Part shown: in pieces, positions 11,623 to 26,300 of the stretch
Layout of the letters: every line of letters starts with the position of its first letter
Numbering within the stretch: position 1 is the first letter of the stretch
IMG/VR virus record: IMGVR_UViG_2579778842_000011
Location: 1-44,866 of that record
DNA length: 44,866 nucleotides
DNA from: a virus
Lineage: Duplodnaviria; Heunggongvirae; Uroviricota; Caudoviricetes
Reading direction: 5' to 3' (one strand)
Notes under the pieces: generated by a model
The model's database searches: none
What the model was told of the DNA's origin: nothing
What the model saw: the letters and a program-made list of their open reading frames with translations, nothing else
Made by a program: the position numbers and the translations under genes

Positions 11623-11808
11623 TTGCCCCTGAATTTTTGCCCCTGAACCAAAATCCCCTAGATTCCACATCCAATTTTTGCCCCTGAAACCCACTATTTT
11701 TGCCCCTGAAATTCTGGGAAACAGTGATTTTGCCCCTCATTTTTGCCCCTGAAATGCCAATAATTGCCCCTGAAAATCTAATTTTTGCCCCTGAAATTTG
11801 CCCCTGAA
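11623..11808 (+). repeat. Iteron-like array: 9 direct copies of TTGCCCCTGAA (8 exact, 1 variant)
   Basis: Copies at 11623, 11637, 11678, 11700, 11730 (variant TTGCCCCTCAT), 11743, 11764, 11785, 11798; all same orientation, irregular 13-41 bp spacing, within a 1.4 kb region lacking ORFs of 60 aa or more. Confidence 0.75.
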
Positions 11809-12436
11809 AAGGATTTGTGAGAAAAACTCTTTATAAAACATTAACTTAGTGAGTGGCAAAACGGGGAATCGGGCGTGCATAGATATTATATAACACATTC
11901 GCTACGCTCATGTGTAAAACCAAAAACAACAAATAACCAAAAAGATATTAGGAGGGCGTAGCCCGACTGCGCGAAGCGCTAACCAATTACTTCTAGTAAC
12001 ACTAATTTAAACTAGATGATACTAGATGGTCTTAGAAGGAATTAACTAGTTTGCTCGCTCGCTTCGCTCACTCTCAAACGTCTGCGACGCCACTGCGTGG
12101 CATCGAGAATCACTTCTGAAAGGATTTTCTTGAAAGGGATTTTAAACTAGTTACTAACTGATTCTAGAAAGATAGTAATAATCACTTTGAAGATAATAGT
12201 AGTTAACTGGTTACTAGATGATTCTAGATCACTTTAATGATCATGAAAGGTATTGGTATCCCTTCGGGATTGCAACCTTCGGTTGCTAAATTGCTTCCTG
12301 ATTATAATTTCTCCAAAAGAAAGATTCTTATATTCTAAAGATACTTCTTCGTTTTGATGATGATTTAATCAAAATCTATGAAGGAGGCGAAGCCGACTGA
12401 ATACCAATTCCTTTCAAATTAGACAAAAATTTCTCG

Positions 12437-12453
12437 TTATAAATAATAGTGAA
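12437..12453 (+). promoter_or_regulatory. Recurrent 17-mer (copy 3, TTATAAATAATAGTGAA) about 35 nt upstream of gene 12489
   Basis: Sequence identity to copies 1 and 2. Confidence 0.4.
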
Positions 12454-12488
12454 CTTACTTTGATTCACTTTTTTAGAGGATTTCCACT

Positions 12489-12941
12489 ATGATCAATACT
12501 AAAACTCCTTTCATTCTTCTGGGTCTGAACCATGATGATAATCTGGCTATGATGCATGTTTTCGCTAATCGTGGTTATAACATCATTCGTCATTCCGAAG
12601 ACTCCAATTTCTCAACTGCTTTCTATGCTCTTAAACGTAATGGTCGCCCTACGGTGATCGTAGACTGCTTTACTGATGAAGGTCGTGAACAATACAACAA
12701 CATTCCGGCAATTATTGTTCGTGATGACCTGCCGTTTGATGTTCGTGAATATGACGTTGATTTAGGCTCTTACTATGGGATCGCCGATCTTGACCAGATT
12801 ATGGCTGATTATGGTAAACAACCCGCTCAGGAAGCCCCAGAACGAGATGAACAAGACGAAGATGACGACGACTACACACCAATCTGTTTCTCTTCTCACG
12901 GTGGCTTCTACGGTTACGATGAAGGCTTAGATATGCTGTAA
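12489..12941 (+). CDS. Hypothetical acidic early protein
   Basis: 150 aa; AGAGGA RBS; C-terminal ERDEQDEDDDDY acidic run. Confidence 0.5.
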   Translation: MINTKTPFILLGLNHDDNLAMMHVFANRGYNIIRHSEDSNFSTAFYALKRNGRPTVIVDCFTDEGREQYNNIPAIIVRDDLPFDVREYDVDLGSYYGIADLDQIMADYGKQPAQEAPERDEQDEDDDDYTPICFSSHGGFYGYDEGLDML

Positions 12942-12963
12942 TTTAGGTCAACCCTTTGGCGTC

Positions 12964-13005
12964 TTGTCAAGGGGTATTGACAAAAATTTCTGACTTTTTT
13001 ATGAT
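12964..13005 (+). promoter_or_regulatory. Candidate sigma70 promoter with overlapping inverted repeat (operator-like)
   Basis: TTGACA 12977-12982, 17 bp spacer, TATGAT 13000-13005; inverted repeat TTGTCAA(12964)/TTGACAA(12977) overlaps the -35. Confidence 0.45.
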
Positions 13006-13061
13006 TATCTCACTTGACAATTTTGAACCTATTTGACCTAGATTTGTAAAGAGGATGTAAC

Positions 13062-13394
13062 ATGAAAGAATTTACCATCACTAAATCCCTGTATGACTGG
13101 ACTGTTAAAATCTCCGGCAAAACCGTTTCTGTAACCCCTAGCCATGTAGAAAATGATTGGGGCGTATCCCGTGAAACTATCTCCCGTAGTATGCATGTTC
13201 CGTTTGATCTGATGTCCTTAACTGGTATTCATGCAATGCTGGAAGTTCGCGAACAATTCGAAGCTGGTAATCACAATGCGACTCCAGTTAGCAATCACCT
13301 TCTTACTAATGAAGAACGTGAAATCATCGAAAACTGGCGTTATGAATATGCGATTCCTTATTATGAAGAAGACCAAGTAGAAATCGATTGGTAA
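13062..13394 (+). CDS. Hypothetical protein
   Basis: 110 aa; AGAGGA RBS. Confidence 0.5.
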   Translation: MKEFTITKSLYDWTVKISGKTVSVTPSHVENDWGVSRETISRSMHVPFDLMSLTGIHAMLEVREQFEAGNHNATPVSNHLLTNEEREIIENWRYEYAIPYYEEDQVEIDW

Positions 13395-13493
13395 TAAATT
13401 TCTATCATAAATAAAAATGTTCCGCGCGCCGTTGGCGTGTGGACAGTTAAAAACAGGAGGATCATCACTAAACCGTTTAAGGGGAATTTAATT

Positions 13494-14324
13494 ATGAATA
13501 CTGTTACTGCTATGAATACTGCTAAAACTGCTTCCGTGTCTCTGGTTGTTGATAACACCAAACCGCTGACCATGTCTTCCCGTCAGATCGCTGAATTTAC
13601 CGGAAAAGAACACCACAAAGTTAAAGTTGATATAACTAAGATGTTGAATGCTCTAGGTTATGAAGATCACGCGAAGTTTCGCGTCATCTATTTTGACCAA
13701 TACGGACGCGAACAAAACGAATATCAACTAGACGAAGAAATGACTCTGACTCTTGTCACTGGTTACGATGTTAAGCGTCGAATGGTTGTTATTCAGGAAT
13801 GGAAACGACTGAAAGAAGAAAATGAAAAACTGCGTTCTCAGCAAGTCAACCCATACGCAAACATGACTAAGCTCGATTGGATTCGTGAGGCAATGGAATT
13901 GGAAGCCGCAAACGAACAACTGATTCAAGAAAAGAAACAACTGGTTGAATTGCATGTTCGTAAAGCTATCGACACACACAGTCTTAGCCGCTTATTAGGC
14001 GAAAAACGAGGCTCTACGAAGGTACAAATTATTCTGAAAGGTTTATGTGCTGCTGGTGTTCTTGAGCGTCGTCTGGATGCTTCTGGTAAGCCTAAAGGCT
14101 ATGATCTGCTTCCTCCTGGCTATATGTTCGCTCGTATGTCGGCACACGGTCAGATCGAGTTCACTGCTGATGCTATCCCGCATCTCGTAAAACTCGGATT
14201 GCTCGAAGAAGAAAAGGCCGCAACTTTGAAATTGCCACAGCCGAATAACTCACGAGCAATCGTCAATAATACTGCTTTGCTGATTCGTCAGAATGCTGGA
14301 TCACTGGAACACTTCGGACTGTGA
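13494..14324 (+). CDS. Rha-family phage regulatory protein / antirepressor-like
   Basis: ATG 13494 after AAGGGG; N-terminal LTMSSRQIAEFTGKEHHKVKVDITKML resembles the Phage_pRha domain; the track start at 13437 is a GTG without RBS. Confidence 0.55.
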   Translation: MNTVTAMNTAKTASVSLVVDNTKPLTMSSRQIAEFTGKEHHKVKVDITKMLNALGYEDHAKFRVIYFDQYGREQNEYQLDEEMTLTLVTGYDVKRRMVVIQEWKRLKEENEKLRSQQVNPYANMTKLDWIREAMELEAANEQLIQEKKQLVELHVRKAIDTHSLSRLLGEKRGSTKVQIILKGLCAAGVLERRLDASGKPKGYDLLPPGYMFARMSAHGQIEFTADAIPHLVKLGLLEEEKAATLKLPQPNNSRAIVNNTALLIRQNAGSLEHFGL

Positions 14325-14899: not shown

Positions 14900-15502
14900 T
14901 TATTTAGAGGACTTACATTTTATCGGAAAAAGTTCTCCATCGTCAACCGACATAAAGAACTCTGCCTTAATCCCGTACTTCTTCAACCGTGAATAGTATG
15001 TACCCCGACTTATATCAACCTTGCGAAGCACTTCAAAGAACCCTTTAGGATCGTTGTAATAGTGGCTATAACGCACGTTAGCGAGTTCAACGAATAGTTC
15101 CCTTGTATCACCATAGCCTTTCTTGAAAGCCTCGTTACGATAGCGTGTAATTGCGTGATTCAATCTCTTCTGTTTCAACACTTCCCTGATCGGTGTCCAC
15201 TGCAACCGATAGATCGGACCGTCATCAATGCGATAATAACGCTTGATATCAAAATCAAACCAATCTCGGACTCTCCGAAACTCTGTATGTGATGTTCTAT
15301 GCTTCTTAAAGAAGTTGTGAACGTCTGTATAACCATTATCGCGGTAAAACTCTATTAAAATCTCTTTCGCTTCCTCACGACTAAAGCCAGATGTAGTGTA
15401 GTCGGTTTTTAAATGCTTATGCTTAACTGGCAAACGATATTCATGATCGGTACAAGACAAGGCTAATTCTAATTCATCTCTTTGTTGCTGATTAATTAGC
15501 AT
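14900..15502 (-). CDS. Hypothetical protein with C-terminal HTH-like motif shared with the two small paralogs
   Basis: 200 aa; AAAGGGGG RBS; C-terminal DISRGTYYSRLKKYGIK. Confidence 0.45.
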   Translation of the reverse strand: MLINQQQRDELELALSCTDHEYRLPVKHKHLKTDYTTSGFSREEAKEILIEFYRDNGYTDVHNFFKKHRTSHTEFRRVRDWFDFDIKRYYRIDDGPIYRLQWTPIREVLKQKRLNHAITRYRNEAFKKGYGDTRELFVELANVRYSHYYNDPKGFFEVLRKVDISRGTYYSRLKKYGIKAEFFMSVDDGELFPIKCKSSK

Positions 15503-15587
15503 ACAACCCCCTTTAATTAATACCCGTATTTATCAAAATATCAACAATTTAATAAATACCTTCATATTTCGTAATGAGGGTAATTAC

Positions 15588-17492
15588 ATGAAACTGATTT
15601 CAAATAAGGCCAAATTAAAAAAGATTCTCAGAAATATCTCTGCTGCAATTCGCCCACCTAAAGCCATGAAGCCTAGCGAATGGGTAGAGGCTAATGTAGT
15701 TGCAACCGATGGTGTTAAAGCCGGATCGCTAATTAAATTGCATCCCTTCCAACGTGGAATGATGGACGCGATCACCGAAGACCGTAGAAAAATTGTGTTT
15801 AAATGTTCGGCACAGTTGGGTAAGACCATGATTCTTAACGGAATTATCTTCCATCGGATCGCGAGTAACCCTACTAATATTGGGGTCTTGCAAAGTAACG
15901 TTAGGGAACTAAATTCTTGGATCGCTGGTAAGGTGAAGCCAGTATTAGAGGCAACGCCAGAATTAAAAGCGATGATCACCGACAAATCAGACCGTAATGC
16001 TGTTAACAACTCATCGATTATTCAGCTTCGTAATGGATCATTCATGTATTTCATGTCGCTGAACAGTCCATCACACTTGCGCGGTAAGACACTCCCTTTG
16101 ATTATTCTTGATGAAGTTGATGCGGCTGATGAATCAGACGAAGGGAACCCGATCCAGCTAGCGGAACAACGCGCAACCACTTTCGGGGAAGATGCAAGGA
16201 TCGTAATTGCTTCCACTCCAACCGCTCGTGATGGGGCGATTAACCAACAATGGGAACTCTCGGATAAGAGAAAATATCATGTCGTTTGCCAGCATTGCGG
16301 ACACAAGCACGTAATGGAATGGAGTAACGTACATTTCGATTGGCATACGATTAACGGTAAATCATTACCCAACCCAGATACAGCCGTTTACCGTTGCCCT
16401 GAATGTGAAACCGATTGGACCGAAGGGGATCGCCTCCGTGCTGTTGCTCAGGGAGAATGGGTCGCCACCGAACCAAATGCGGAAGTAATCGGTTTTCATG
16501 CTAACCGCCTTATGTCTCCGTTTAGTTCTATCCGTGCGTGTGTGGTGGACTTTGCTGATAGCTACGCGAATATGTCCCTGGCAACGTTCTACAATACAGT
16601 CCTCGGTGAAACCTTCGATGATCTTAACGAAGATCGCACAGCCGACGAACTGGAAACGCTGAAAACTGATATTAGCCTAGACAATATTCCTGATGATGTA
16701 CTGGCTCTGGTAGGTGGAGTTGACCAGCAAAAAGACCGTCTGGAATCTACCTTGCTGGGTATTTCTCGTAAAGGGCTATGCGTAGTTGATCACCGATCAT
16801 TCTATGATGTGAACTGCGAACGCCACGAATCACCAGCATATAACCAGCTTTACAACTTCCTGAAAGCTAAATTCTATACCCGATCCGGTGAACGAATCCC
16901 GATGTTATCTGCTTTCGTGGACTCATCGAACGGACGAGCTACAAACGTGATCTATCGATTCTGTAGTCGGTGGCAAAATCTAACCGCCATTAAAGGCGCA
17001 AGCAATGTTGATGCACCAATCCTTCCGGTAAAAGACACAAGAACGGGTGGTTTTACCCTTAAAATTCTGGGCGTAAACAACCTTAAAACGATGATCCGTG
17101 AAATGATTAACCGGAACTTGAGAGATGGCGATCCTCACACTGTCTTCCAGATTGGTGACGTTCCTGATGACTATTGCGAGCAATTGCTTTCTGAACAGTT
17201 GAAACGGCAGGGTAATACCACACGTTGGGTAAAAGTTGGACAAACACGAAACGAAGCGTTGGACTGCCTGGCTTATTCCTATGCTGCTTCTCGTCATGTA
17301 CTCAATAAAATGTCATGGGAAAAACTCGAAGCCATCAAAGATAGTTTGAACCGTGAACCAGAAGAATCCGTAGAAGCTCCTAAATCGCAATCTAACGAGC
17401 AAATCGAAGAAACTAAGCCAATCACACGACCACAACGTAAAAACATCGCCAGACGCCCAAATAGAGGCCGTAGCTGGGTAACATCGTTCTAA
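15588..17492 (+). CDS. Terminase large subunit (lambda GpA family)
   Basis: 634 aa; Walker-type segments; C-terminal WVKVGQTRNEALDCLAYSYAA resembles recalled lambda gpA RNEALDCFVYALAA. Confidence 0.85.
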   Translation: MKLISNKAKLKKILRNISAAIRPPKAMKPSEWVEANVVATDGVKAGSLIKLHPFQRGMMDAITEDRRKIVFKCSAQLGKTMILNGIIFHRIASNPTNIGVLQSNVRELNSWIAGKVKPVLEATPELKAMITDKSDRNAVNNSSIIQLRNGSFMYFMSLNSPSHLRGKTLPLIILDEVDAADESDEGNPIQLAEQRATTFGEDARIVIASTPTARDGAINQQWELSDKRKYHVVCQHCGHKHVMEWSNVHFDWHTINGKSLPNPDTAVYRCPECETDWTEGDRLRAVAQGEWVATEPNAEVIGFHANRLMSPFSSIRACVVDFADSYANMSLATFYNTVLGETFDDLNEDRTADELETLKTDISLDNIPDDVLALVGGVDQQKDRLESTLLGISRKGLCVVDHRSFYDVNCERHESPAYNQLYNFLKAKFYTRSGERIPMLSAFVDSSNGRATNVIYRFCSRWQNLTAIKGASNVDAPILPVKDTRTGGFTLKILGVNNLKTMIREMINRNLRDGDPHTVFQIGDVPDDYCEQLLSEQLKRQGNTTRWVKVGQTRNEALDCLAYSYAASRHVLNKMSWEKLEAIKDSLNREPEESVEAPKSQSNEQIEETKPITRPQRKNIARRPNRGRSWVTSF

Positions 17493-17564
17493 TAACTCGC
17501 CGTCCTTCGGGGCGGCTTACTCCTAAATATTGTTAATCCAATAACAATTAAATAAGGGGTAATT

Positions 17565-18059
17565 ATGAGTTTAGAACTAATTCCCTTAGTAATTCGTAAA
17601 GGCGAAAAAATCACGCTGGCGAATGAAGAGGGTGTAACAATTCAGGTAGGAAATAGTAAAGGTATCATCTATCAGGTTGATGATACTCCGGCTAATCACG
17701 AGATTAAAACCTTAGATTTTTCCGAAGGTAAATATACCATCGTAACAACTTTGGAAGATGAACTGGTATCAATGCAGGAATTAACTGTTTTGCCAGTATT
17801 CGCCAAAATCTCCAAAAAAGAATATCTGCGGGAAACTATCGCCTTAATCGAGCAAGTTATTTTCGCCCGTTTATCTGGGGACGAAGCCGCATTATCTGCA
17901 ATGACCGTGAAAGGGAATACTTTCGCCTATGAGTCATTGGGTGTTCTCCAGCAATTGAAGACTGATTATGAACGTCAGTTATCTAAATTAATTCAAGCCG
18001 AACGACGTAAACAGGGAATTAGCCCGATTAAAAATATTAAAGTACGTCTTACGCGATAA
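17565..18059 (+). CDS. Hypothetical head-assembly protein between terminase and portal (gpW-position analog)
   Basis: 164 aa; AAGGGGTAA RBS; positional inference only. Confidence 0.35.
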   Translation: MSLELIPLVIRKGEKITLANEEGVTIQVGNSKGIIYQVDDTPANHEIKTLDFSEGKYTIVTTLEDELVSMQELTVLPVFAKISKKEYLRETIALIEQVIFARLSGDEAALSAMTVKGNTFAYESLGVLQQLKTDYERQLSKLIQAERRKQGISPIKNIKVRLTR

Positions 18060-18069
18060 GGGGTAAATC

Positions 18070-19581
18070 ATGTTTAATCTTTTTCGACGCAAAAAGGCGG
18101 TAGAAACTCCAGTTAAAACTAATCACCGCCAGCAACAACCAAAAATTTTCATCGACAAATCTATAGAAAAATACCAGAGATCTTTGGCGACTCGTAGTTT
18201 AGGTCTGGTGGGTGATCGTATTGATGGATCACTTCAACAAGACACCATTACAGGAACCTTCAATAAGGCTCTCAAATCGAACGGTAAGCGCCTTTATGAT
18301 CAGGGTCGTACTCTGGCCTTAAACACTTCCGTAGGCAGTCGCTACACGCAATACATAACCGATATGGTGGTAGCTACTGGCCTAGATCCGAAGCCGTCAG
18401 TTGTTAAATCAAACGGCAAACTTGATAGCGCACTGAATAAGCAGATCGAGAATGCTTTCTGGAAGTGGGCGCAGAATGCTAAACGCTTCTCTCGTAACGG
18501 TCGTTTTAACTTCCGTGAACTGCTGGTGATGGCTGAACGTGAACGCGTTATGGGTGGTGAGTGCTTCATAGTTTTAACCAAAGAAAACAATGAGTTAAAT
18601 GTTTCTATCCTGTCTGCTGATAAGTGCGACTGGTCGCTAAACCGTGAAGTAAGCAAAGACCGTGCGATATATCAAGGTGTGGAGTATGACGTAGAGACGA
18701 TGAAGCCCGTAGCATACTGGTTTCGTAAAATCAACCTACTGACTCAGACCTACACTGGTGATAACTATCGCGTAGATGCATCGCAAGTATGCCATTATTA
18801 TCAACCACTTACAGCCGAATCCCTGCGTGGTGTGACTGACTTCCTGCCAGTGATTAAGGATATCGCACATCAAGACGCATTCCGCGAAACTGCGATCGTC
18901 CAGAAACGTATTGCAGCTAGCTCGATGGGCTTTATCGAACGTCCGAAAGATTCTGGTGACGATTTTGATACTGGTGAAGAGGATGAACAATATCAAGCGC
19001 CGGAAGTAGTACAGGATTTTGCACCAGGTACTATTCAGGAATTACCGGAAGGGGCAACGATCAAGAGCATCCAGGCGACGCAAAGCGGTGATGACTTTAA
19101 CAGCTTCAATGATGCGATGTTTACTAGCGTATCAATGGGTTTAGGCGTGTTTAAACAGGGCTTAACGGGAGATTGTTCACAGATCAACTACTCAGCCGCA
19201 CGTTTTGGTGAACTACTTCAACGTAACCGCGTTAAAGCACTTCAAAACAAATTAATTGAAACAGTGGTATTGCCAATTTTCGAAGCGTATCTACGCCATT
19301 ATTCCGCGCGTGGTATTGTTCCGATTCGTATTACTGCAATTCCACATATTATCGATAATACAACTATTATTCGTCCGCGTTTCGAGTCTGTCGATGTTAT
19401 TAAAGACGTAAACGCTGATATTGCTTTAATTGATAAAGGACTTAAATCACGTACTGCCGTTATTCTTGAACGTGGTGATGATCCTGAAAAAGTATTCTCA
19501 GAGATTCAAGCCGAAAAGAGCGCACTAAATATTATCGTTAATGGCGAGGGTGAAGAAAAAAATTCCCCAGCCGATCCCTAA
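18070..19581 (+). CDS. Portal protein (lambda gpB-like)
   Basis: 503 aa; position after terminase; VFKQGLTGDCSQINYSAARF region resembles recalled lambda B. Confidence 0.8.
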   Translation: MFNLFRRKKAVETPVKTNHRQQQPKIFIDKSIEKYQRSLATRSLGLVGDRIDGSLQQDTITGTFNKALKSNGKRLYDQGRTLALNTSVGSRYTQYITDMVVATGLDPKPSVVKSNGKLDSALNKQIENAFWKWAQNAKRFSRNGRFNFRELLVMAERERVMGGECFIVLTKENNELNVSILSADKCDWSLNREVSKDRAIYQGVEYDVETMKPVAYWFRKINLLTQTYTGDNYRVDASQVCHYYQPLTAESLRGVTDFLPVIKDIAHQDAFRETAIVQKRIAASSMGFIERPKDSGDDFDTGEEDEQYQAPEVVQDFAPGTIQELPEGATIKSIQATQSGDDFNSFNDAMFTSVSMGLGVFKQGLTGDCSQINYSAARFGELLQRNRVKALQNKLIETVVLPIFEAYLRHYSARGIVPIRITAIPHIIDNTTIIRPRFESVDVIKDVNADIALIDKGLKSRTAVILERGDDPEKVFSEIQAEKSALNIIVNGEGEEKNSPADP

Positions 19582-19626
19582 TAACCAACGGGGGCGCAAT
19601 GCCCCCAATTAATTAAAGGTGATTAA

Positions 19627-21630
19627 ATGCTTAAATTTCGCCGCGATCTTAACGGTTACGGTGGAGTTATTAACGAAGGGCATAACGATCAATACGAATT
19701 TGAAATTGCTTTCTCAAGTACACAGCCTTATCAGCGCCAATTTTGGGATGAGCAAAATCAAGAAATGGTGGTATTAGATGAAATTCTGGTACATACACCG
19801 GAAGCGGTTGATCTGTCTCGTCTGAATAATAACGCTCCGTTGCTGTTCAATCATAATTTCGATAATCATATTGGTGTCGTTTGTAACGCTCGAATCGATG
19901 CGGATAACGTAGGTCGTGCTCTGGTTAAATTCTCTAAGCATGGCACTTTGGCTAATGATATTCGCAATAAAGTCATTGAAGGTACGATGGAAAAAATATC
20001 GGTCGGCTATGACATTAAAGAGTATCACATCGACTACGCTAAATCGCAACTCATTGTTTCTAAATGGATTCCGCACGAAATTTCGTGGGTCACGGTCCCG
20101 GCGGACGATTCGGTCGGTTTAAATCGCTCTCTAAATACTATCACAGTTAATTTGGGGGCTAAACGCGATATGACTAAAGAACAAATCGAAGAAATCAAAG
20201 AAGAACAAGAATCCGCTCAGGTTGAAGAAACTCCGGTAGAAGAAAATAAAGAACCGGAAGTTGAAGAAACTCAAGAGCGCCAAGTTGAAGAGAATAAAGA
20301 AGATGAAAATCTCGAAGACGGAAAAGACGCTAAACATCCTGAAAGTGTTGATGATGATAGTTCAACTGTTCGGGAAGAAGAAGAAGTAAAAGAAGAACGT
20401 GAAGCCGCTCCGGTTGAAGAAGAAAAAATCGAAGAAGTGGCTGAACGTTCCGAAGAAGACGAATTAGAAATTCGCGAAATTGCACGCGAACTAAATATTG
20501 ATGACTCTGAATTAGCACGCGCATTGGCAATTAAAGACATGACGCCGGAAGCATTCCGCACTAAGGCGCTAAATAACATTACCAATGTTCAACGTAATAA
20601 CGAACAAATTAAGGACTCTAAAATGGAAAAAACTTTCGATCTTAATAACGTAATCCGCTCCCTGGTAGATGGCGACGTGCTCGGCGCTAACGAAGCTGAA
20701 TATTCCGCAATGGCTGCTACTGCAACTATGCAGCGTGGTCGTGCTGCTCGCGGTGGCTCTGTATTCGTTCCGGCTGCTGCTATGCGTGCTGCTTCTGCTG
20801 GTAACACCAAAGCCGACCTGACCGCTATCACTGACGAAAAACTGATGACTGAATCCTACATCGAAATGCTGATGCCGGAATCTGTTCTGGGTCGTCTGGG
20901 TGTGACTGTTTACAGTGGCTTGAACTCCCCGACCGCTATTCCAAAAATGACTAAATCCAGCGTTGACGCTTTCGGCTTCGTTGATGAAAACGGTGCTGCA
21001 CCGGAAAGCAAAGCTGAATTTGCGAACGTGAAACTGTCTCCTAAGACGTTTGCTGGTGGGAACCCGATCAGCAGAGCGAGCCTAAAAACCGTACCCGGCA
21101 TCGCTTCCCTGATCACTGATCACATTAACAAAGCTGTTCGCATCAAACTGGAACAACTGATTCTGTCTGATAAAGCTAACGACCGTGGTCCGGCTGGTCT
21201 GGTTAAGCAACTGGTAGACGCTAACCGCGTTACCAAGAAAGCTGCTTTCTCTTACAAAGACTTCCTGAAAGAAATTGCAGCACTGACCGACGCTGGCGTT
21301 CCTGCTCAGGCGATCAAGTTTGCGATGAGCGGTGCAACTGCTGCTGAACTGGAATCTACCCTGAAAGATAACGGCGTTTCCGGTTATATCATCGAAAACG
21401 GCAAACTGGCTGGTTACGAAGTAGTTACTTCTGGCGTTATTCCGGCAGACCACATCGTTCTGGGTGACTTCTCCGGTATTACCATCGGTGAGTGGGGCGG
21501 TCTGGAACTGGATATGGATCTAACTACATACCGTGACCGTGGTGCGGTAGTGCCTCGTATCTTTGTAGATTTGGACTACGTTGTAGCACAGCCGGAAGCT
21601 CTGAAAGTTCTGAAAATTGGCGAAGAGTGA
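19627..21630 (+). CDS. Prohead protease - acidic linker/scaffold - major capsid protein fusion (HK97-like)
   Basis: 667 aa; N-terminal ~170 aa with prohead-protease-like motifs (LLFNHNFDNHIGVV, ISWVTVPADDS); E/K-rich linker; C-terminal ~330 aa capsid-like; ends at UGA 21628-21630. Confidence 0.7.
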   Translation: MLKFRRDLNGYGGVINEGHNDQYEFEIAFSSTQPYQRQFWDEQNQEMVVLDEILVHTPEAVDLSRLNNNAPLLFNHNFDNHIGVVCNARIDADNVGRALVKFSKHGTLANDIRNKVIEGTMEKISVGYDIKEYHIDYAKSQLIVSKWIPHEISWVTVPADDSVGLNRSLNTITVNLGAKRDMTKEQIEEIKEEQESAQVEETPVEENKEPEVEETQERQVEENKEDENLEDGKDAKHPESVDDDSSTVREEEEVKEEREAAPVEEEKIEEVAERSEEDELEIREIARELNIDDSELARALAIKDMTPEAFRTKALNNITNVQRNNEQIKDSKMEKTFDLNNVIRSLVDGDVLGANEAEYSAMAATATMQRGRAARGGSVFVPAAAMRAASAGNTKADLTAITDEKLMTESYIEMLMPESVLGRLGVTVYSGLNSPTAIPKMTKSSVDAFGFVDENGAAPESKAEFANVKLSPKTFAGGNPISRASLKTVPGIASLITDHINKAVRIKLEQLILSDKANDRGPAGLVKQLVDANRVTKKAAFSYKDFLKEIAALTDAGVPAQAIKFAMSGATAAELESTLKDNGVSGYIIENGKLAGYEVVTSGVIPADHIVLGDFSGITIGEWGGLELDMDLTTYRDRGAVVPRIFVDLDYVVAQPEALKVLKIGEE

Positions 21631-21717
21631 AATAACGAAGAATTGCCGGAAGAAATTCCGGTAGTTACGGCGAAAGCCACAGCTAAAAAGGTGGGACGTC
21701 CACCGAAAGCAAAATAA
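21631..21717 (+). other. In-frame 28-codon extension downstream of the capsid UGA stop (putative readthrough product)
   Basis: NNEELPEEIPVVTAKATAKKVGRPPKAK then TAA; shares NEELP and VVTAKATAK with the extension after the major tail gene. Confidence 0.45.
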
Positions 21718-21723
21718 TAATTA

Positions 21724-21749
21724 GCCCTGCCTAACGGTGGGGCTTTTTT
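21724..21749 (+). terminator. Rho-independent terminator after the capsid gene
   Basis: GCCCTGCC-TAAC-GGTGGGGC (two G-U pairs) followed by TTTTTT. Confidence 0.7.
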
Positions 21750-21780
21750 GTATGTAAATACTCCATAAAGGGGGGTAACT

Positions 21781-22071
21781 ATGTTCAAATTATCAGAATC
21801 ACAATTATCAAGAATGTTTAAAAGTGCTCCTGTATTTTCGGTGGAAGGTGGTAAATCAATTCGTGCTTATCATGAAATTACTACTACCGACGAACAAGGG
21901 GTAATGACAGAGACAGAATTTTTATTTTGTCGTGAGGGAGACTTAAAGCAGGGTGATATTGTCATTGTAGAAAATCAGCGTTTCAAAGTTCAATACGTTA
22001 AGCGCAATGGTGACAATACAACTGATTGCTTTATCACTCTGGCAGGGGGTACACATGCTCGCTACCGTTAA
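21781..22071 (+). CDS. Putative head completion / head-tail adaptor protein
   Basis: 96 aa; AAGGGGGG RBS; position after capsid gene. Confidence 0.4.
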   Translation: MFKLSESQLSRMFKSAPVFSVEGGKSIRAYHEITTTDEQGVMTETEFLFCREGDLKQGDIVIVENQRFKVQYVKRNGDNTTDCFITLAGGTHARYR

Positions 22072-22477
22072 TAACATGCCGAGACTGAAAATCAAACGCG
22101 CCTTGCAAGATATTATCGAACAAGATTTAGGTCTGGCTTTAAACGTAGAACAAACTCAGCAAGGCTTTAGTGATGATGTGGTTTGTTGGATCACCGGAAT
22201 GAATGAGACTTACACTAGGGTCCGTGGTGGTAATGCAATGCAAGCTGAATGCGTTATCGAAATGCAATTATATTCTCAGATTCATGAAACCAAAATTCAT
22301 GAGGGTATTTGCCAGATAATCCAGATTCAGCCGGATAACCCACGTTTTAAAGATTTGGGCTTCTCTATTTCAGATATCACTCCAGTAGCTTCTAATACCG
22401 ATTATGACGATGATTCTAGTGATGGGGGTATCGTTGGGACACTTAGCCTTAAATTTTCTTATCTAGCGCGTTTTTAA
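22055..22477 (+). CDS. Putative head-tail joining protein
   Basis: ORF 22007..22477; ATG 22055 has GGGGG 5 nt upstream; overlaps end of previous gene; start uncertain (alternative 22076). Confidence 0.35.
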   Translation: MLATVNNMPRLKIKRALQDIIEQDLGLALNVEQTQQGFSDDVVCWITGMNETYTRVRGGNAMQAECVIEMQLYSQIHETKIHEGICQIIQIQPDNPRFKDLGFSISDITPVASNTDYDDDSSDGGIVGTLSLKFSYLARF

Positions 22478-22486
22478 GGGGTAATA

Positions 22487-23320
22487 ATGAATATTACACA
22501 AGATAACTTAGATATTTTCACTGGATCACATGTTGAAGTGTCGATCTCTAACCAGATAGACAATCAGGTCGACTTTTTCGATCCTAGCTTTAGTTCTATG
22601 GAGAACATCGCAGCATTCCCTACGCTAACCGAATCCACAGAGATAGAAACTCTGGAAGAGTACGATCAGGACGCTACGGGGAAACTTGCTGGTTATCGTA
22701 GACTGGAACCGACAACACTCACATTAAACCGTGTTCTTGACGATGAACATCAAGCAATGTTGATGAAAGCGGTAGAGGATAAAACACCTTTACGCTTCCG
22801 TATGTTCTATGTTGTGAACTCTGGCTATAGTGCTGCTAACACAGGGTACTTTTGTATATTCGATGCTTACGTCACATCACATAAAACCCGTGGTAGTGAT
22901 AACAAAGCTGTAACACTGGAATTTAAACTTGAACCAGATGGCGGGATTTTGGCAAGGGGTATTGCTACCGAAGGTAAGATCTTACGTCAGGGTGATTTTG
23001 GTATTGGTGCTGGTGTACATCCATTTACAGGGGGTATAGACGACACAGCATTAGCCGGAAACCGTTTCGTAACTTACAAGGGAACTGCTAGCGGCAATCC
23101 ATATTCAACCGACACAGCATTAATTCACCTTCAAGCTAATGAGCATGGCGCATGGCAATTAACCTGTAATACTTCTGGCGCACCGCGTTTACGTGTCCGA
23201 AATATTCAGGAAAACGGTCGTTCTGAATGGATCAAGGTATATTCCACCAATGAGAAACCGACACCTAGCGAAATTGGCGCAGTGGCTAAGACTGACCGGA
23301 TCGATTTCGGCGAATACTAA
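22487..23320 (+). CDS. Putative neck/tail-associated protein with fiber-like C-terminal motif
   Basis: 277 aa; C-terminal NEKPTPSEIGAVAKTD resembles DKPTPGEIGAYTKAE in the downstream fiber. Confidence 0.4.
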   Translation: MNITQDNLDIFTGSHVEVSISNQIDNQVDFFDPSFSSMENIAAFPTLTESTEIETLEEYDQDATGKLAGYRRLEPTTLTLNRVLDDEHQAMLMKAVEDKTPLRFRMFYVVNSGYSAANTGYFCIFDAYVTSHKTRGSDNKAVTLEFKLEPDGGILARGIATEGKILRQGDFGIGAGVHPFTGGIDDTALAGNRFVTYKGTASGNPYSTDTALIHLQANEHGAWQLTCNTSGAPRLRVRNIQENGRSEWIKVYSTNEKPTPSEIGAVAKTDRIDFGEY

Positions 23321-23399
23321 GGATTCTCCTACCTAAATAAAACATGAACGTTGGGAGGTTAACGCCTCCCTTATTCCTGTTTTATAGTGAGGTGATTCG

Positions 23400-26300
23400 A
23401 TGCAGTCGATCCAATTTAAACGCACACAAACGGCTGGTAAAAAACCAACGCCGGAACAATTATCACAGGGTGAAATCGCCTTACAACTGGCGGACCATGT
23501 GATTTACACCAAAGATAAAAATAATAACGTAGTCCAAATTAGTGTTTCTCCAGAAAAACACGCTGAACTGAATACGAAAGTAGACACCAACAAGGTCAAT
23601 ACAGATAAAGTCATTTCAGCAAATAAAACCGAAGCCGCTAATAATCTGGCTAGTGCTAAAGCTGAACTTAATCAGACTATCACTTCTACCCGTGATGCTC
23701 TCAATGCTTCAATCACTGCTGGCGACACCGCAGCCAACAAACGAATTGATGCTTTGACTACCACAGTAGGTAACAATAAAACCGAAGCGGCTAACGCTCT
23801 GGCGGCTGCTAAGACTGAACTGAATCAGACTATTACTTCAACCCGCGATACTATCAACGCAACAATTAACAAGAACAAGACAGATATTAATGCACGAGTT
23901 GATCAGACTAATACCAACGTTACTAACTTAACGAATAATATCGCAGCAAATAAATCAGCAATAGAAAAGACGGTAGCGGATAATAAGAAAGATGCGGACA
24001 CGAAGATCACCAATCTTACTAGTACGGTCTCTGCGAATAAGACATCCATTGAAAGAACTGTTGCAAATAACAAGGCCAGTGCCGATGCCGCAATTGCCGC
24101 AGCTAATCAGCGAATTGATTCTATTGAAGGTAGTGCCGATGCTGCTTACATCAAGAAGAATACCAACACTTACCATCACGGCTATCTGTTAACCAAAACA
24201 GCTAACTATTTGGAAGACCAGACAGCGAGAGATCTTAACTACTTTGGTGCTTTCCGTACCAATGGTCAAGATGGACTCATGGATCTAACTCTTAACGTTC
24301 CTCACTCTGCCGGCAAAGCGCACGGTCGCGGATTTACTTTCCGTTATGCGTCTGGTGGATCTCGTGTTGAAACCTATGGTTTTGATAGAGAAGGACAGAA
24401 GAACTTTAGCTATAAGATGTATCACGAAGGTGATAAGCCGACTCCTGGCGAAATCGGTGCATACACTAAAGCAGAAGTTGACAAGATGTTTGTTAAAAAC
24501 GTCACTATGTCTGTTCCTAATTCTAGCGAAAACGTATCTGCATATTTCAAATTGGCAACCGCAACAATTCCACAAAACGGGCGTAGTGTGTTTTTCCGTA
24601 TTCATGGTGGTAATGGTTACAACGTTACGGCATATGACCAAGTTGATGTAGTAGAAATTCTTCTCCGTAGTGGTAACGATAGACCTAAAGGACTTAACGT
24701 AGTTGCATATCGTCGAAATACCGTCAAAGATTTTGATGTATTTGCCGTCAATACATCCGGTGATAACTATGACATTTATGTGAAATATCAGCGTTACACT
24801 GATAACGTTATTGTTGAATTTGGTAAAAGTGTTTATGTTAATCTGACTGTTCACGATACACCGGAAGCCACGTTAATTAAACCTTCTGTTGGTGTTATTG
24901 ATGGGCGCATCATTACTCTATTCAATACAGAAAACAAACGAGGTGTGTTGAGTTTTGACGATAACCCACAAAATAGTTATGATATTGTTCACTTGAGTAA
25001 TGATAGGGGTACTGGACGAAAATATATTCGTAAATTCCGTAGCAACTATAACGAAATGATCTGGCATGAGACGGTTCAAGGTTCTACTTATCGACTCGCC
25101 ACGGGTAGTACAGATGCCCAGGAGATTCTATCCGTTGAATCTAGTAGCTCTATTGCTGGGACTCATAAAGGTAATATTCTTTCTGGTCGAATGATGTTGG
25201 GTGGCGGTAGTAATGTTATTACCTTGCGGCGTCCTGCTGGTCAATCCAACCATATTACGTTTCAAGATAATCGGACTGGATCTATTACCCGTCAAGGGTG
25301 GATCGGTTATGGTAATGCTGATACTAACGTTTTTGAATGGTATAGTGATGTAGGTGGCAGTTCTATTCGTCACCACATCGACGGACAGATCGAACTTGCA
25401 ACCGGTAACACAAAACGCGTTTATACTAACGCTCAATTCATCTCAATGAATAGCGACGCCTACCGTATGCTCTATGGTAATTATGGTGCATTCTGGCGTA
25501 ATGACGGCGTTAAAGTTTATCTTCTTTCTACTGCCGAAAATGATAAATTGGGCGGATGGAATACTTATCGTCCATTCATTTATGATTTAACTTCCGGCAA
25601 CGTTCAATTAGGCGGTGATGGTAACGAAGATGCATTAACGTTAGAACGTGCTTCTCGTGCCGCTCGCTTTAGTAATGACGTTTACATTAAGAAAGGGCAT
25701 TTGACTTTCGACGCTGGGCGATTAAATTCCCGCGATTATTTCCGGTTTAACCATTGGGGTGATAGCAATAACGGTCGCGATAACATCCTACAGATTGAAG
25801 ACAGTCAGGGCGCACATTTTATCACTGAACGTGCTATGGGTACTGGTAACATAACAACACGTTTTAGAGGCTTTGTACGTGTAGAATCTGGTGAAATTGC
25901 ATTTGATGCTAACCGTGGTTCTTCTTCGCAATTTAGTCTCCATACATGGGGTAACGAGCAACGCAAACAGGTTTTTGAATGTAAGGATGCTACAAGTTAT
26001 CACTGGTATACTGAACGTACTCAGGGTGGCACTGGACCTATTCTGTTCTCTATGGCGGGTAGTCTAAACGTTGCTAGCAATATCACAACAACTGGTGCTG
26101 ATATTACGTTTAAACGCGCTGGCAATAAGCACATCTGGTTTAGAGATCCAAACGGTTTAGAGTTGGGCTTGATGTATTGCGATGACGCTGGTGTTATTCG
26201 CTTCCGTGGTGAGAAACAAACCGAAGTCTGGAAATTCGGCGGTAAGATGATTCACCTTGAAACGGGCACTGTATCCGGTGGCGGTAATGGTCTTATTCGT

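What the first reader, a model, noticed from the sequence alone, without database searches (positions are those of the whole stretch)
19627..21630. Prohead protease, scaffold-like acidic linker and major capsid protein fused in one 667-aa ORF
Most lambda/HK97-like phages encode protease and capsid protein separately. Here one ORF contains a protease-like N-terminal domain, a ~170-residue Glu/Lys-rich linker that may act as a delta/scaffolding domain, and the capsid domain. Together with the readthrough extension this makes the capsid gene product unusually multi-functional.
Basis: partly seen in the sequence, partly recalled or inferred. Interest (0 to 1): 0.35.

Follow-up and report, generated by a model that had tools for sequence, protein, structure and literature searches.

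The report
Fused phage protease–scaffold–capsid gene
One 667-codon gene of an E. coli prophage really does encode the head-maturation protease, a scaffold-like middle part and the major capsid protein as one chain. This layout is already known and widespread in phages, but the sequence also suggests extra start sites and a leaky stop codon that would give several protein versions.

Summary
Window 19627-21630 (+) is one intact 667-aa ORF. It has an S78 (HK97 gp4-type) prohead protease domain (aa ~21-168; His76, Ser125 and Glu151 invariant in 151/151 relatives). Next come a disordered acidic linker (169-271), a confidently predicted helical module (272-393) and an HK97-fold capsid domain (~398-667).

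The architecture is not new. PHROG 617 matches end to end, NCBIfam has a model named for this fusion, 149 of the 150 best 50%-identity cluster representatives are 560-893 aa (fused size), and Nocturne116 ORF18 has been shown structurally to be the same tripartite precursor. The element is an E. coli prophage next to tRNA-Ser, present in about 1% of complete E. coli genomes.

Two features look less ordinary; both are inferred from sequence only:
- **Internal starts.** The family carries a conserved Shine-Dalgarno+ATG just after the protease domain (44/63 ORFs against 7 expected). This lineage has a second one at Met333, conserved in 33/33 loci, exactly where E. coli codon adaptation jumps from 0.28 to 0.66. 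The bulk capsid protein is therefore probably made from internal starts, and the protease fusion is a minor isoform.
- **Leaky stop.** An invariant TGA-A stop is followed by an in-frame open 28-45-codon extension ending in TAATAA.

Verdict: a member of a known kind; modest interest.

The parts
19615..19623 (+). Shine-Dalgarno-like AAAGGTGAT in front of the ATG of the full-length ORF
   Evidence: Read directly from the sequence. Local folding of the initiation region is weak (-5.8 kcal/mol, 83rd percentile of the ORF).
19627..21630 (+). 667-aa ORF (73.5 kDa, pI 4.7): prohead protease, acidic linker, helical scaffold-like module and major capsid protein. Stop codon is TGA.
   Evidence: PHROG 617 matches aa 23-663 against profile positions 26-622 of 626, E 7e-91.
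19687..20130 (+). S78 (HK97 gp4-type) prohead serine protease domain, aa ~21-168
   Evidence: Pfam PF04586, E 1.2e-9, above the gathering score. AF2 pLDDT is 90-98 over aa 21-165. It aligns with HK97 gp4.
19852..19854 (+). Codon of His76, aligned with catalytic His65 of HK97 gp4
   Evidence: Alignment; invariant in 151/151 sequences. The identity of gp4 His65/Ser114 as catalytic residues is from my own knowledge of the HK97 literature.
19999..20001 (+). Codon of Ser125, aligned with the catalytic nucleophile Ser114 of HK97 gp4
   Evidence: 151/151.
20077..20079 (+). Codon of Glu151 (EIS motif), invariant; possibly the third catalytic residue
   Evidence: 151/151. The catalytic role is inferred.
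20131..20439 (+). Disordered, strongly acidic linker, aa 169-271 (40 D+E and 13 K+R in 103 residues; pI 4.1)
   Evidence: AF2 pLDDT <50 over most of the stretch, with one short helix at 184-198. Composition. Poorly conserved and gap-rich in the family alignment.
20154..20172 (+). Family-typical internal start candidate: GGGGG (GGAGG in 27 of 32 close relatives), an 11-nt spacer, then ATG of Met182, 15 codons after the end of the protease domain. The product would be 486 aa, 52.9 kDa.
   Evidence: It is weak in this window: the motif is degenerate, the spacer is long, and there is no rise in codon adaptation after it.
20440..20805 (+). Helical module, aa 272-393 (helices 276-288, 293-301, 307-335, 339-348, 354-369 and 383-391): the likely delta- or scaffold-like assembly domain
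   Evidence: AF2 pLDDT 80-95. Contains conserved family positions E273, R274, I282, F310, E356, E358, G371, G376, P382 and R387.
20611..20625 (+). Internal translation start candidate: AAGGA, a 7-nt spacer, then ATG of Met333. The product would be 335 aa, 35.3 kDa.
   Evidence: It is the only SD-preceded in-frame start codon inside the ORF. It is conserved in 33/33 intact loci across five different upstream peptide variants. It has the least structured initiation region of the in-frame ATGs (-3.7 kcal/mol, 93rd percentile). Codon adaptation steps up here.
20785..20817 (+). Predicted maturation-cleavage region, aa 387-397 (AAAMR|AASAGNTK|ADL). Best guesses are after the invariant Arg387 or after Lys395.
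   Evidence: The deposited R4C capsid protein chain 8gta_A equals residues 362-629 of its 629-aa fused precursor and aligns from window aa ~398. Arg387 is invariant in alignment A2. The AF2 model is disordered at 394-407. Nocturne116 appears to be cut after Arg242 (PMC13595954). The exact site is inferred.
20818..21627 (+). HK97-fold major capsid domain, aa ~398-667 (mature protein about 29-30 kDa)
   Evidence: Pfam PF05065, E 1e-26. PDB 8gta_A by sequence, E 5e-24. Foldseek: 8gta_A 1.6e-18, HK97 1ohg 1.5e-10. AF2 pLDDT about 90-97.
21628..21631 (+). TGA stop followed by A, invariant in 33/33 related loci although the two preceding codons vary (7 versions)
   Evidence: Across the wider family 50 of 65 ORFs end in TAA.
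21631..21720 (+). In-frame open extension of 28 codons (NNEELPEEIPVVTAKATAKKVGRPPKAK) closed by tandem TAA TAA; candidate readthrough tail
   Evidence: Frame 0 is open in 33/33 loci with five length variants (28, 42, 43, 44 and 45 codons). The other two frames always contain stops, and TAATAA is invariant. It is absent from the 45%-identical DCP80 homologue.
21723..21750 (+). Intrinsic terminator-like hairpin plus T-run that closes the capsid transcription unit
   Evidence: 9-bp stem, 6 G-C pairs, followed by TTTTTT; conserved in all related loci.

Best explanation
**Shown by sequence and profile evidence.** The ORF encodes a self-processing capsid precursor of a temperate E. coli siphophage-like prophage. 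It consists of an N-terminal HK97 gp4-type (S78) serine protease, a flexible acidic tether, a helical delta/scaffold-like module and a C-terminal HK97-fold major capsid domain.

**Inferred from the family's biology.** The capsid domains co-assemble on the lambda-type portal into a procapsid, with the N-terminal parts pointing inwards. The enclosed protease (His76/Ser125, probably with Glu151) then cuts at the scaffold/capsid junction, around Arg387-Lys395, and degrades itself and the scaffold. This leaves a capsid protein of about 29-30 kDa that can expand on DNA packaging.

**Inferred from comparative sequence signals.** The gene is probably a nested, 3'-co-terminal set of in-frame cistrons rather than a one-product gene. 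The family keeps an SD+ATG just after the protease domain. This lineage has a stronger one at Met333, so most capsid subunits would be made without the protease and the 667-aa fusion would be a minor isoform that delivers a limited dose of protease. The logic would be that of lambda C/Nu3 and herpesvirus UL26/UL26.5.

**Least certain.** A leaky TGA-A may add a 28-residue acidic-then-basic tail to a few percent of subunits.

My confidences: architecture and self-processing about 0.9; internal initiation about 0.6; readthrough about 0.45.
For: **Architecture**
- Pfam, PHROG and NCBIfam hits.
- Catalytic His and Ser aligned with HK97 gp4 His65/Ser114 and invariant in 151/151 sequences.
- AF2 model with confident protease, helical and HK97-fold parts.
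- Foldseek hits to R4C and HK97 capsid proteins.
- Among the neighbouring ORFs scanned, none between portal and adaptors matches a protease or scaffold family.
- 149/150 best cluster representatives are 560-893 aa, the fused size.
- Published precedent for the same tripartite precursor and its junction cleavage (PMC13595954).
- R4C's deposited capsid chain equals residues 362-629 of its fused ORF.

**Internal initiation, family-wide**
- 44/63 diverse fused ORFs (30/43 non-redundant) have an SD+ATG 5-60 codons after the protease domain, against 7.3 +/- 2.4 expected from random codons of the same zone.
- ATGs in that zone are SD-preceded 45-52% of the time, against 8-9% for other codons there and 5-6% for ATGs elsewhere; p 1e-16 to 1e-25.
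- Split relatives have the protease stop overlapping exactly such an SD+ATG of a delta+capsid gene.
- In the enterobacterial phages the best change-point of E. coli codon adaptation lies 1-16 codons from that ATG: DCP80 180 vs 181, ECO1230-10 216 vs 218, Bas97 217 vs 218, Arya 215 vs 224, PT1 217 vs 233.

**Internal initiation, this lineage**
- Met333 is the only SD-preceded internal start.
- AAGGA-N7-ATG is kept in 33/33 loci across five different upstream peptides.
- Its initiation region is the least structured of the in-frame ATGs.
- CAI without Glu/Lys codons is 0.26 (aa 1-181), 0.31 (182-332), 0.66 (333-397) and 0.63 (398-667) in the window. The same step occurs in all 32 alleles scored (0.24-0.32 against 0.56-0.76), despite nucleotide diversity of 0.1-0.18 in the capsid part.
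- No promoter-like site lies inside the ORF.

**Readthrough**
-, as listed under parts.
Against: - No protein-level data exist for this prophage. Every step after 'the ORF encodes these domains' is inference.
- Met333 lies at the end of a predicted long helix (307-335), inside the helical module rather than at a clean domain border. A 335-aa product would carry only half of that module.
- The SD+ATG signals could be relics of an ancestral two-gene state, and the codon-usage step could reflect mosaic ancestry. The capsid part is much more diverse than the protease part among alleles.
- The full-length start has an SD of similar quality, so relative amounts cannot be deduced.
- CAI weights were typed in from memory (Sharp and Li 1987).
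- For readthrough: variable sites in the extension are not concentrated at third codon positions (7/17/20), so there is little sign of amino-acid constraint. The extension has no family match and is missing from the nearest phage isolate.
Confidence: 0.8

Rival explanations
1. Single-product polyprotein. Only the 667-aa chain is made, so every capsid subunit brings its own protease and scaffold, which are all removed by autoproteolysis. On this view the internal SD+ATG motifs and the codon-usage step are evolutionary leftovers or a by-product of mosaic recombination, and the sequence after TGA is just a 3' untranslated region.
For: - This is the reading given in the literature on such fusions that I read (PMC13595954; PAJU2 via PMC8306868).
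- The full-length start has a good SD.
- Split relatives show that the SD+ATG could be inherited from a two-gene ancestor.
- The capsid half has a different diversity level from the protease half, which suggests a separate history.
- Met333 falls inside a predicted helix.
- The extension shows no clear amino-acid constraint.
Against: - A relic would decay, yet the SD+ATG is kept in 70% of very divergent family members (about 25-45% identity) and is about 5-fold enriched over the local background.
- In this lineage AAGGA-N7-ATG survives five different rewrites of the flanking codons.
- With a single start, ribosome flux is equal along the ORF. Selection for E. coli-optimal codons should then not switch on within a few codons of the internal ATG in three separate lineages, nor be maintained in all 32 diverse alleles.
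Confidence: 0.3
2. Assembly or sequencing artefact. Two or three separate genes (protease, scaffold, capsid) only appear fused because a stop codon or frameshift was lost in this assembly.
For: Separate protease and delta+capsid genes do exist in some relatives. In genomes where IS1 has split the gene, PGAP annotates a separate 'HK97 family phage prohead protease' (H44).
Against: The same uninterrupted ORF is found in an identical database protein, in about 230 near-identical variants listed by two protein searches, in 48 complete E. coli genomes that hold most of the query stretch, and in 32 independent IMG/VR contigs. The same layout is seen in 149/150 distant cluster representatives.
Confidence: 0.01
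3. Dead protease. The N-terminal domain has lost activity and serves only as an internal scaffold or spacer, and maturation is done by a host protease or one encoded elsewhere, or does not happen.
For: Activity was not tested. The TIGR01543 equivalog score is below its cutoff (33 against 59 bits).
Against: His76, Ser125 and Glu151 are invariant in 151/151 sequences, and the protease part is the best conserved segment of the whole protein. Pfam S78 is above its gathering score. The neighbouring ORFs that were scanned carry no other protease family.
Confidence: 0.03

Closest known systems
Lactococcus phage Nocturne116 ORF18 (and Pseudomonas phage PAJU2 'capsid polyprotein', UniProt P85500)
   Same: One ORF with an N-terminal prohead protease, a central putative scaffolding domain and a C-terminal HK97-fold capsid protein. 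The mature capsid protein starts at the scaffold/capsid junction, after Arg242 in Nocturne116 (PMC13595954; PMC8306868).
   Different: Much shorter middle part: the Nocturne116 capsid domain starts at residue 243, against about 388-398 here. Those papers describe no internal start sites and no readthrough tail. Sequence similarity to the window protein was not measured.
Dinoroseobacter phage vB_DshS-R4C gp006 (PDB 8gta) and the PHROG 617 family (phiHAP-1, Jilinvirus ECO1230-10/ep3/Arya, Rhodobacter RcCronus, Xanthomonas FoX phages)
   Same: Homologous over the full length (about 27-30% identity by tblastn, covering both ends of the query). Same domain order, and the same gene position after a portal gene in the loci I inspected. 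R4C's deposited capsid chain is only the last 268 of 629 residues. These relatives also carry one SD+ATG just after the protease domain.
   Different: In these relatives the only strong internal SD+ATG is at the protease/linker border (Met152-Met217). The window lineage has a weak one there and a strong extra one at Met333. The two relatives inspected in the immediate group (L001 ETEC1738, 33 loci) share the TGA-plus-extension; DCP80, at 45% identity, ends in TAA with no extension.
HK97 gp4 (protease) plus gp5 (delta domain + capsid protein)
   Same: Same protease family with the same catalytic His/Ser, same capsid fold, and an N-terminal helical assembly domain removed at a basic residue (gp5 Lys103/Ser104, from my own knowledge). 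Same gene order, with a hairpin before and a terminator after the pair.
   Different: HK97 has two separate genes, and the protease is targeted to the shell by its C-terminal tail rather than by covalent linkage. Whether the capsid protein here forms the HK97 Lys-Asn cross-link was not tested.
Nested in-frame protease/scaffold genes: lambda C/Nu3, Mu I/Z, herpesvirus UL26/UL26.5 (from my own knowledge)
   Same: A long form carrying the protease and a more abundant, 3'-co-terminal short form made from an internal in-frame start, which sets a low protease-to-shell ratio. This is the logic proposed here.
   Different: In those systems the nested product is the scaffold alone and the capsid protein is a separate gene. 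Here the nested product would be the capsid protein itself, with part of the scaffold. Lambda's protease is a different family (S49-like). Here the nesting is inferred, not demonstrated.
Capsid-gene recoding that gives a minor C-terminally extended coat protein: Q-beta A1 (UGA readthrough), T7 gene 10A/10B (-1 frameshift), Listeria phages A118/PSA (+1 frameshift) (from my own knowledge)
   Same: A minor fraction of coat subunits gets a C-terminal extension through a programmed decoding event at the end of the coat gene. In Q-beta the signal is a leaky UGA followed by A.
   Different: I know of no tailed phage that does this by stop-codon readthrough, and my one literature search found none. 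Here it is only a conserved open frame behind an invariant TGA-A.

Membership tests
Peptidase S78 / HK97 gp4-type prohead protease (Pfam PF04586) | Profile match above the curated threshold | tested here: met
   39.0 bits against a gathering score of 21, aa 40-162. The stricter TIGR01543 equivalog is below its cutoff (32.9 against 59).
Peptidase S78 / HK97 gp4-type prohead protease (Pfam PF04586) | Catalytic His and Ser at the positions of gp4 His65 and Ser114 | tested here: met
   His76 and Ser125 align with them and are invariant in 151/151 sequences.
Peptidase S78 / HK97 gp4-type prohead protease (Pfam PF04586) | Proteolytic activity on the capsid precursor inside the prohead | not testable with these tools
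   Needs mass spectrometry or N-terminal sequencing and a Ser125Ala mutant.
HK97-fold major capsid protein (Pfam PF05065 Phage_capsid) | Profile match above the curated threshold | tested here: met
   94.4 bits against 24.2, aa 409-664.
HK97-fold major capsid protein (Pfam PF05065 Phage_capsid) | HK97 fold | tested here: met
   AF2 model pLDDT about 90-97 over 408-667. Foldseek: 8gta_A E 1.6e-18 (TM target 0.71), HK97 1ohg_A 1.5e-10.
HK97-fold major capsid protein (Pfam PF05065 Phage_capsid) | Lys-Asn isopeptide cross-linking of subunits (HK97 subtype only) | not tested
   Equivalents of the cross-link residues were not examined.
Prohead protease / scaffold / major capsid fusion proteins (PHROG 617; NCBIfam NF045541 'scaf_prot_MCP2') | Full-length match to a profile built from fused proteins | tested here: met
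   PHROG 617: aa 23-663 against profile positions 26-622 of 626, E 7e-91. PHROG 4523 'major head and protease protein': E 6e-38.
Prohead protease / scaffold / major capsid fusion proteins (PHROG 617; NCBIfam NF045541 'scaf_prot_MCP2') | Score above the NF045541 curated cutoff | tested here: not met
   123 bits against a cutoff of 525, and only aa 22-343 match. Same architecture, but not a member of that narrow NCBIfam family.
Prohead protease / scaffold / major capsid fusion proteins (PHROG 617; NCBIfam NF045541 'scaf_prot_MCP2') | Mature capsid protein is only the C-terminal part of the ORF | not testable with these tools
   Supported indirectly: the deposited chain 8gta_A equals residues 362-629 of the homologous R4C ORF, and Nocturne116 appears to be cut at Arg242/Ser243.
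HK97 gp5-type delta (scaffolding) domain | Helical N-terminal module directly preceding the mature capsid protein, separated from it by a flexible, cleavable segment | tested here: met
   Helices between 276 and 391 (pLDDT 80-95), then a disordered 394-407. This is a prediction only; a role in assembly is not testable here.
Nested in-frame protease/scaffold cistrons (lambda C/Nu3, herpes UL26/UL26.5 type) | Functional internal in-frame initiation site giving a 3'-co-terminal, more abundant product | tested here: inconclusive
   The in-silico signals are strong: SD+ATG conservation, a codon-adaptation step and an open initiation region. There is no protein or ribosome-profiling evidence.
Programmed stop-codon readthrough (Q-beta A1 type) | Leaky stop in a conserved context, followed by a conserved in-frame ORF | tested here: inconclusive
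   TGA-A is invariant and frame 0 is open in 33/33 loci, with five length variants all differing by multiples of 3 and a tandem TAATAA at the end. However, the substitution pattern is not third-position biased, and the feature is confined to this lineage.
Programmed stop-codon readthrough (Q-beta A1 type) | Extended protein detected | not testable with these tools
   Needs virion proteomics.

The most novel reading that the evidence does not exclude
The 'fusion gene' is really a translational device with up to four outputs, and this may be a general, so far undescribed rule for the whole protease-capsid fusion family. In-frame internal initiation after the protease domain (here mainly at Met333) would make the bulk capsid protein. 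The full-length chain would be a minor isoform that doses and tethers the protease inside the shell, as in herpesvirus UL26/UL26.5. In this E. coli lineage a leaky TGA-A would in addition decorate a few subunits per capsid with an acidic-then-basic 28-45-residue tail, which would be the first stop-codon readthrough in a tailed-phage capsid gene.
Probability: 0.4. Interest if true: 0.6.

Novelty: new member of a known kind. Interest (0 to 1): 0.33.

Why it matters
The fusion itself changes nothing: it is a known way of packing head-assembly functions into one gene.

The value lies in what follows from it. If every capsid subunit carried its own protease, a T=7 shell would hold about 415 proteases, far more than HK97-type heads use. 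The conserved internal start signals suggest how these phages avoid that. They would also explain why annotators see 'one gene' where there may be two or three products.

This matters for annotation, because capsid proteins of this family are listed at 600-700 aa although the mature protein is about 270-280 aa. It matters for interpreting virion proteomics and for the evolution of protease/scaffold/capsid modules. It is also relevant to engineering, since a natural C-terminal readthrough tail on an E. coli phage capsid would be a ready-made low-copy display site.

The prophage occurs in about 1% of complete E. coli genomes, so it can be studied in a standard host.

Tried and rejected
1. **Stx2 phage Sp5 lead.** A paper hit (PMC5155283) suggested this late region, but its capsid protein is P22/N4-like and it has no protease. 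Not related.
2. **Megablast against phage genomes.** Window 15000-24000 gave no match, so no sequenced isolate is close. The nearest, DCP80, is 45% identical at protein level.
3. **R4C structure paper.** PMC10276861 does not mention the protease part or any cleavage. Only the length of the deposited chain is informative.
4. **The search for related loci with the full-length diverse alignment.** It failed because no stretch was conserved enough. Restricting the alignment to the protease domain worked.
5. **Second profile search of the 5.8-billion-protein set.** It returned only near-identical E. coli proteins and added no diversity.
6. **CAI with all codons.** This put the window's change-point at codon 178, because the linker is full of GAA and AAA, which count as optimal. 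Without Glu/Lys codons the step is at 341 and the linker is as poorly adapted as the protease. I therefore dropped the idea that Met182 is the main start in this window.
7. **Conserved Met at the capsid N-terminus across the family.** Met positions scatter (46/150 near position 322, 53/150 near 383). Protein alignment alone does not show a second internal start outside this lineage.
8. **Composition artefact for the SD-ATG enrichment.** I tested whether Glu-rich linkers create it; the in-zone control rejects this.
9. **Family match for the extension.** The extension peptides have no PHROG match, and TGA plus extension is not a family-wide feature.
10. **Foldseek of the whole model.** The 50 matches shown were all capsid or encapsulin shell proteins, so the protease fold was not checked structurally.
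11. **Literature searches.** Searches for internal initiation in such fusions and for readthrough in tailed-phage capsid genes found nothing. The library lacks most subscription journals, so absence is weak evidence.
Full report
**1. Observation**

Window 19627-21630 (+) is a single ORF of 667 codons with an ATG start and a TGA stop.

It is not an assembly artefact:
- A 100% identical 667-aa protein from E. coli is in the databases, and about 230 variants listed by two protein searches (88-100% identical) are 654-670 aa long.
- Fifty-five of 5426 complete E. coli genomes match the stretch, 48 of them over at least 80% of it.
- Of 32 IMG/VR contigs, 31 keep the ORF intact, as does one RefSeq locus; one contig is frameshifted.

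The ORF sits in a classical head module. In order: gpA-type large terminase (15588-17492), a 164-aa ORF with a head-tail-joining PHROG match, a lambda-family portal (18070-19581), this ORF, an intrinsic terminator (21723-21750), then an FII-like adaptor. None of the neighbouring ORFs that I scanned matches a separate protease or scaffold family.

The element is a prophage. Window 1-8384 is E. coli chromosome (ghrA, ycdX, tRNA-Ser) and the phage DNA starts at about 8385. In strain ETEC1738 the same phage sits in hicB.

**2. What the protein is**

- **End domains.** Pfam finds Peptidase_S78 at aa 40-162 and Phage_capsid at aa 409-664, both above their gathering scores.
- **Catalytic residues.** Aligned with HK97 gp4, His76 and Ser125 fall on gp4 His65 and Ser114. 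That these are the catalytic residues is my own knowledge of the HK97 literature. His76, Ser125 and Glu151 are invariant in the window protein plus 150 cluster representatives.
- **Predicted structure.** An AlphaFold2 model built on 79 diverse homologues has mean pLDDT 81. It shows four parts:
  - a confident protease domain (21-165);
  - a stretch at 169-271 that is mostly disordered (one short helix at 184-198) and strongly acidic (40 D+E in 103 residues);
  - a confident helical module (helices between 276 and 391);
  - a short disordered hinge (394-407) followed by a confident HK97 fold (408-667).
- **Fold search.** Foldseek's best hits are the capsid proteins of roseophage R4C (8gta_A, E 1.6e-18) and many HK97-type capsids including HK97 itself.

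One is a flexible acidic tether. The other is a conserved helical module, which is the better candidate for a delta- or scaffold-like domain.

**3. How common the fusion is**

- PHROG 617 ('major head protein', profile length 626) matches from aa 23 to 663. PHROG 4523 is named 'major head and protease protein'.
- NCBIfam has NF045541, 'prohead protease/major capsid protein fusion protein'. The window protein scores below its narrow cutoff.
- An exhaustive HMMER search of 1.84 billion cluster representatives gives 6230 hits. Of the best 150, 149 are 560-893 aa long, which is the fused size.
- tblastn finds the same layout in 80 phage records, including phiHAP-1, R4C, RcCronus, Jilinvirus and Xanthomonas FoX phages. 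Some of these are annotated 'major capsid protein and protease'.
[quoted passage not shown] The mature N-terminus there is at residue 243 (PMC13595954).
- PAJU2's 'capsid polyprotein' is an older example (PMC8306868).
- Rhodobacter RcC phages and many actinophages are annotated the same way.

The architecture is known.

**4. Maturation site**

The PDB chain of the R4C capsid protein has 268 residues and corresponds exactly to residues 362-629 of R4C's 629-aa fused ORF. By alignment this is window residue ~398.

Just upstream lies an Arg (Arg387) that is invariant in the 37-sequence alignment. The AF2 hinge is at 394-407.

HK97 cuts after Lys103 (my own knowledge) and Nocturne116 appears to be cut after Arg242. 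I therefore predict cleavage after Arg387 or Lys395. That would give a mature protein of 29.6 or 28.9 kDa. This is inference.

**5. Signals for internal translation starts**

*This ORF and its close relatives*
- Only one in-frame ATG/GTG/TTG inside the ORF is preceded by a Shine-Dalgarno motif at a proper distance. It is Met333 (ATG at 20623; AAGGA at 20611-20615; 7-nt spacer).
- E. coli codon adaptation changes abruptly there. I used Sharp-Li weights entered from memory. CAI is 0.36 for aa 1-332, similar to the neighbouring genes (0.28-0.35), and 0.66 for aa 333-667.
- Because the linker is rich in GAA and AAA, I repeated the calculation without Glu and Lys codons. The values are 0.26 (aa 1-181), 0.31 (182-332), 0.66 (333-397) and 0.63 (398-667), and the best change-point is codon 341.
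- The same step is present in all 32 related alleles scored (0.24-0.32 before, 0.56-0.76 after). This holds even though the capsid part is the most diverse part of the gene, with nucleotide diversity 0.1-0.18.
- AAGGA-N7-ATG is kept in 33/33 intact loci. The codons around it occur in five versions: IKDSK, INKEQI, INKEKN, INKESI and IKESK.
- The region around Met333 is the least structured of all the in-frame ATGs (-3.7 kcal/mol against an ORF mean of -10.8).
- No promoter-like site lies inside the ORF.

*More distant relatives*
- In these the single strong internal SD+ATG lies right after the protease domain: DCP80 Met180, ECO1230-10 Met216, Bas97 and PT1 Met217, Arya Met215, phiHAP-1 Met152 and R4C Met189.
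- In the enterobacterial phages the codon-adaptation change-point falls 1-16 codons from that ATG.
- I tested this on 77 diverse IMG/VR loci found through the protease domain. Of 63 complete fused ORFs, 44 (30 of 43 non-redundant) have an SD+ATG 5-60 codons after the protease domain. Random codons of the same zone would give 7.3 +/- 2.4.
- ATGs in that zone are SD-preceded in 45-52% of cases. The figure is 8-9% for other codons of the zone and 5-6% for ATGs elsewhere.
- Five relatives have the split form: a 209-247-aa protease gene whose stop overlaps an AGGAGG-ATG of a 492-525-aa delta+capsid gene.
- The window lineage also has the family-typical site at Met182 (GGAGG in 27 of 32 relatives, GGGGG here, 11-nt spacer). 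It shows no codon-adaptation rise after it.

*Reading*
The simplest interpretation is that these 'fusions' are nested 3'-co-terminal cistrons. A minor long form would carry the protease. Abundant shorter forms would provide the shell: scaffold plus capsid protein in most lineages, and mainly a 35.3-kDa Met333 product here.

*Caveats*
- No protein evidence exists.
- Met333 lies within a predicted helix.
- The signals could be inherited from a two-gene ancestor.
- The two halves of the gene have different diversity, which is compatible with mosaic history.

**6. The stop codon and the extension**

- In all 33 loci the ORF ends in TGA followed by A, although the two preceding codons occur in seven versions.
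- Frame 0 stays open for 28, 42, 43, 44 or 45 codons, so all length differences are multiples of three.
- The open frame then ends in an invariant TAATAA just before the terminator. The other two frames always contain stops.
- In the wider family TAA is the usual stop (50 of 65). TAA is also what is expected for a gene with such codon adaptation.

Against a functional extension:
- Variable sites are not concentrated at third positions (7/17/20).
- The peptides match no family.
- The 45%-identical DCP80 gene ends in TAA with another stop two codons later.

I rate programmed readthrough at about 0.45. I found no report of stop-codon readthrough in a capsid gene of a tailed phage, but the library searched is incomplete.

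**7. Verdict**

- The arrangement is a known, widespread kind, and this exact protein is already in the databases as 'phage major capsid protein'. The finding as stated deserves a low to moderate score.
- The by-products are more interesting than the fusion: family-wide internal start signals, a lineage-specific start at Met333 with a sharp codon-usage step, and a conserved TGA-A plus open extension. They are easily testable in E. coli, but they rest on sequence statistics only.

Noticed in passing
window 21628-21720: An invariant TGA-A stop is followed by an in-frame open tail of 28 codons here and 42-45 codons in other alleles. The tail is acidic and Pro-rich, then Lys-rich (..KKVGRPPKAK), and is closed by tandem TAATAA just before the terminator. 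It is a candidate for programmed readthrough of the capsid gene.
   Followed up: yes
window 19589-19607: A G+C-rich hairpin (GGGGGC-GCAAT-GCCCCC) lies in the 45-nt gap between the portal gene and the capsid ORF. It has no T-run on the + strand. HK97 has a putative terminator at the same position between portal and protease (L003 3309-3335). It could attenuate transcription or stabilise the capsid mRNA.
   Followed up: no
window 1-8384 versus 8385 onwards: G+C drops from 0.50-0.57 to about 0.37-0.47. The left part is E. coli ghrA, ycdX and tRNA-Ser, so this copy of the prophage sits next to tRNA-Ser. The 93-97% identical phage in ETEC1738 (L001) is inserted in hicB and ends in a recombinase-family gene. 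These are two different integration sites for one phage type.
   Followed up: partly
L002 (Escherichia phage DCP80, PQ671644.1) 1-13765: This record is classified as a 141-kb T-even-like Straboviridae phage. Its left end nevertheless carries a head module in the same order as the window (large terminase, a 161-aa ORF, a third ORF in the portal position, then the fused protease-capsid gene), with most of these genes annotated 'hypothetical'. It looks like a chimeric or mis-joined assembly.
   Followed up: no
L093, L108, L111, L115, L120 (about 2030-2800 in each): These are split versions of the family. A 209-247-aa protease gene has its stop overlapping (ATGA or GTGATG), or lying a few bases before, an AGGAGG-ATG of a 492-525-aa delta+capsid gene. 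They are useful for reconstructing how fusion and fission happened.
   Followed up: partly
L080, L090, L058, L060, L091 (just downstream of the capsid ORF): Several distant relatives encode a 55-64-aa protein directly after the capsid gene (PHROG 2616/5463, function unknown; the L091 match is marginal). It has an acidic stretch and a Lys-rich C-terminal tail (..EDKPRKKGRSKKDE, ..EPKQPKKK). The tail resembles the end of the window's post-TGA extension in composition.
   Followed up: partly
hits H44 and H55 (E. coli FXCREC043, UTME-12): In some genomes an IS1 element is inserted in this stretch. In FXCREC043 (H44) PGAP then annotates a separate 'HK97 family phage prohead protease' alongside a 'phage major capsid protein'. 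This is a natural disruption and an annotation pitfall.
   Followed up: no
window 19627-21630, compared with L001 and L010-L040: Nucleotide diversity among E. coli alleles is 0.02-0.05 in the protease part and 0.1-0.18 in the capsid part. Protein identity stays at 89-97%, and codon adaptation stays high in every allele scored. The capsid half seems to recombine or evolve separately from the protease half.
   Followed up: partly
window 21781-22477: The 96-aa FII-like ORF (21781-22071) overlaps the longest reading of the next ORF (22007-22477) by 65 nt. RefSeq annotation of the homologous locus starts the second gene later, leaving a 17-nt overlap (L001 23058). The mechanical ORF start at 22007 is therefore probably not the real one.
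   Followed up: no
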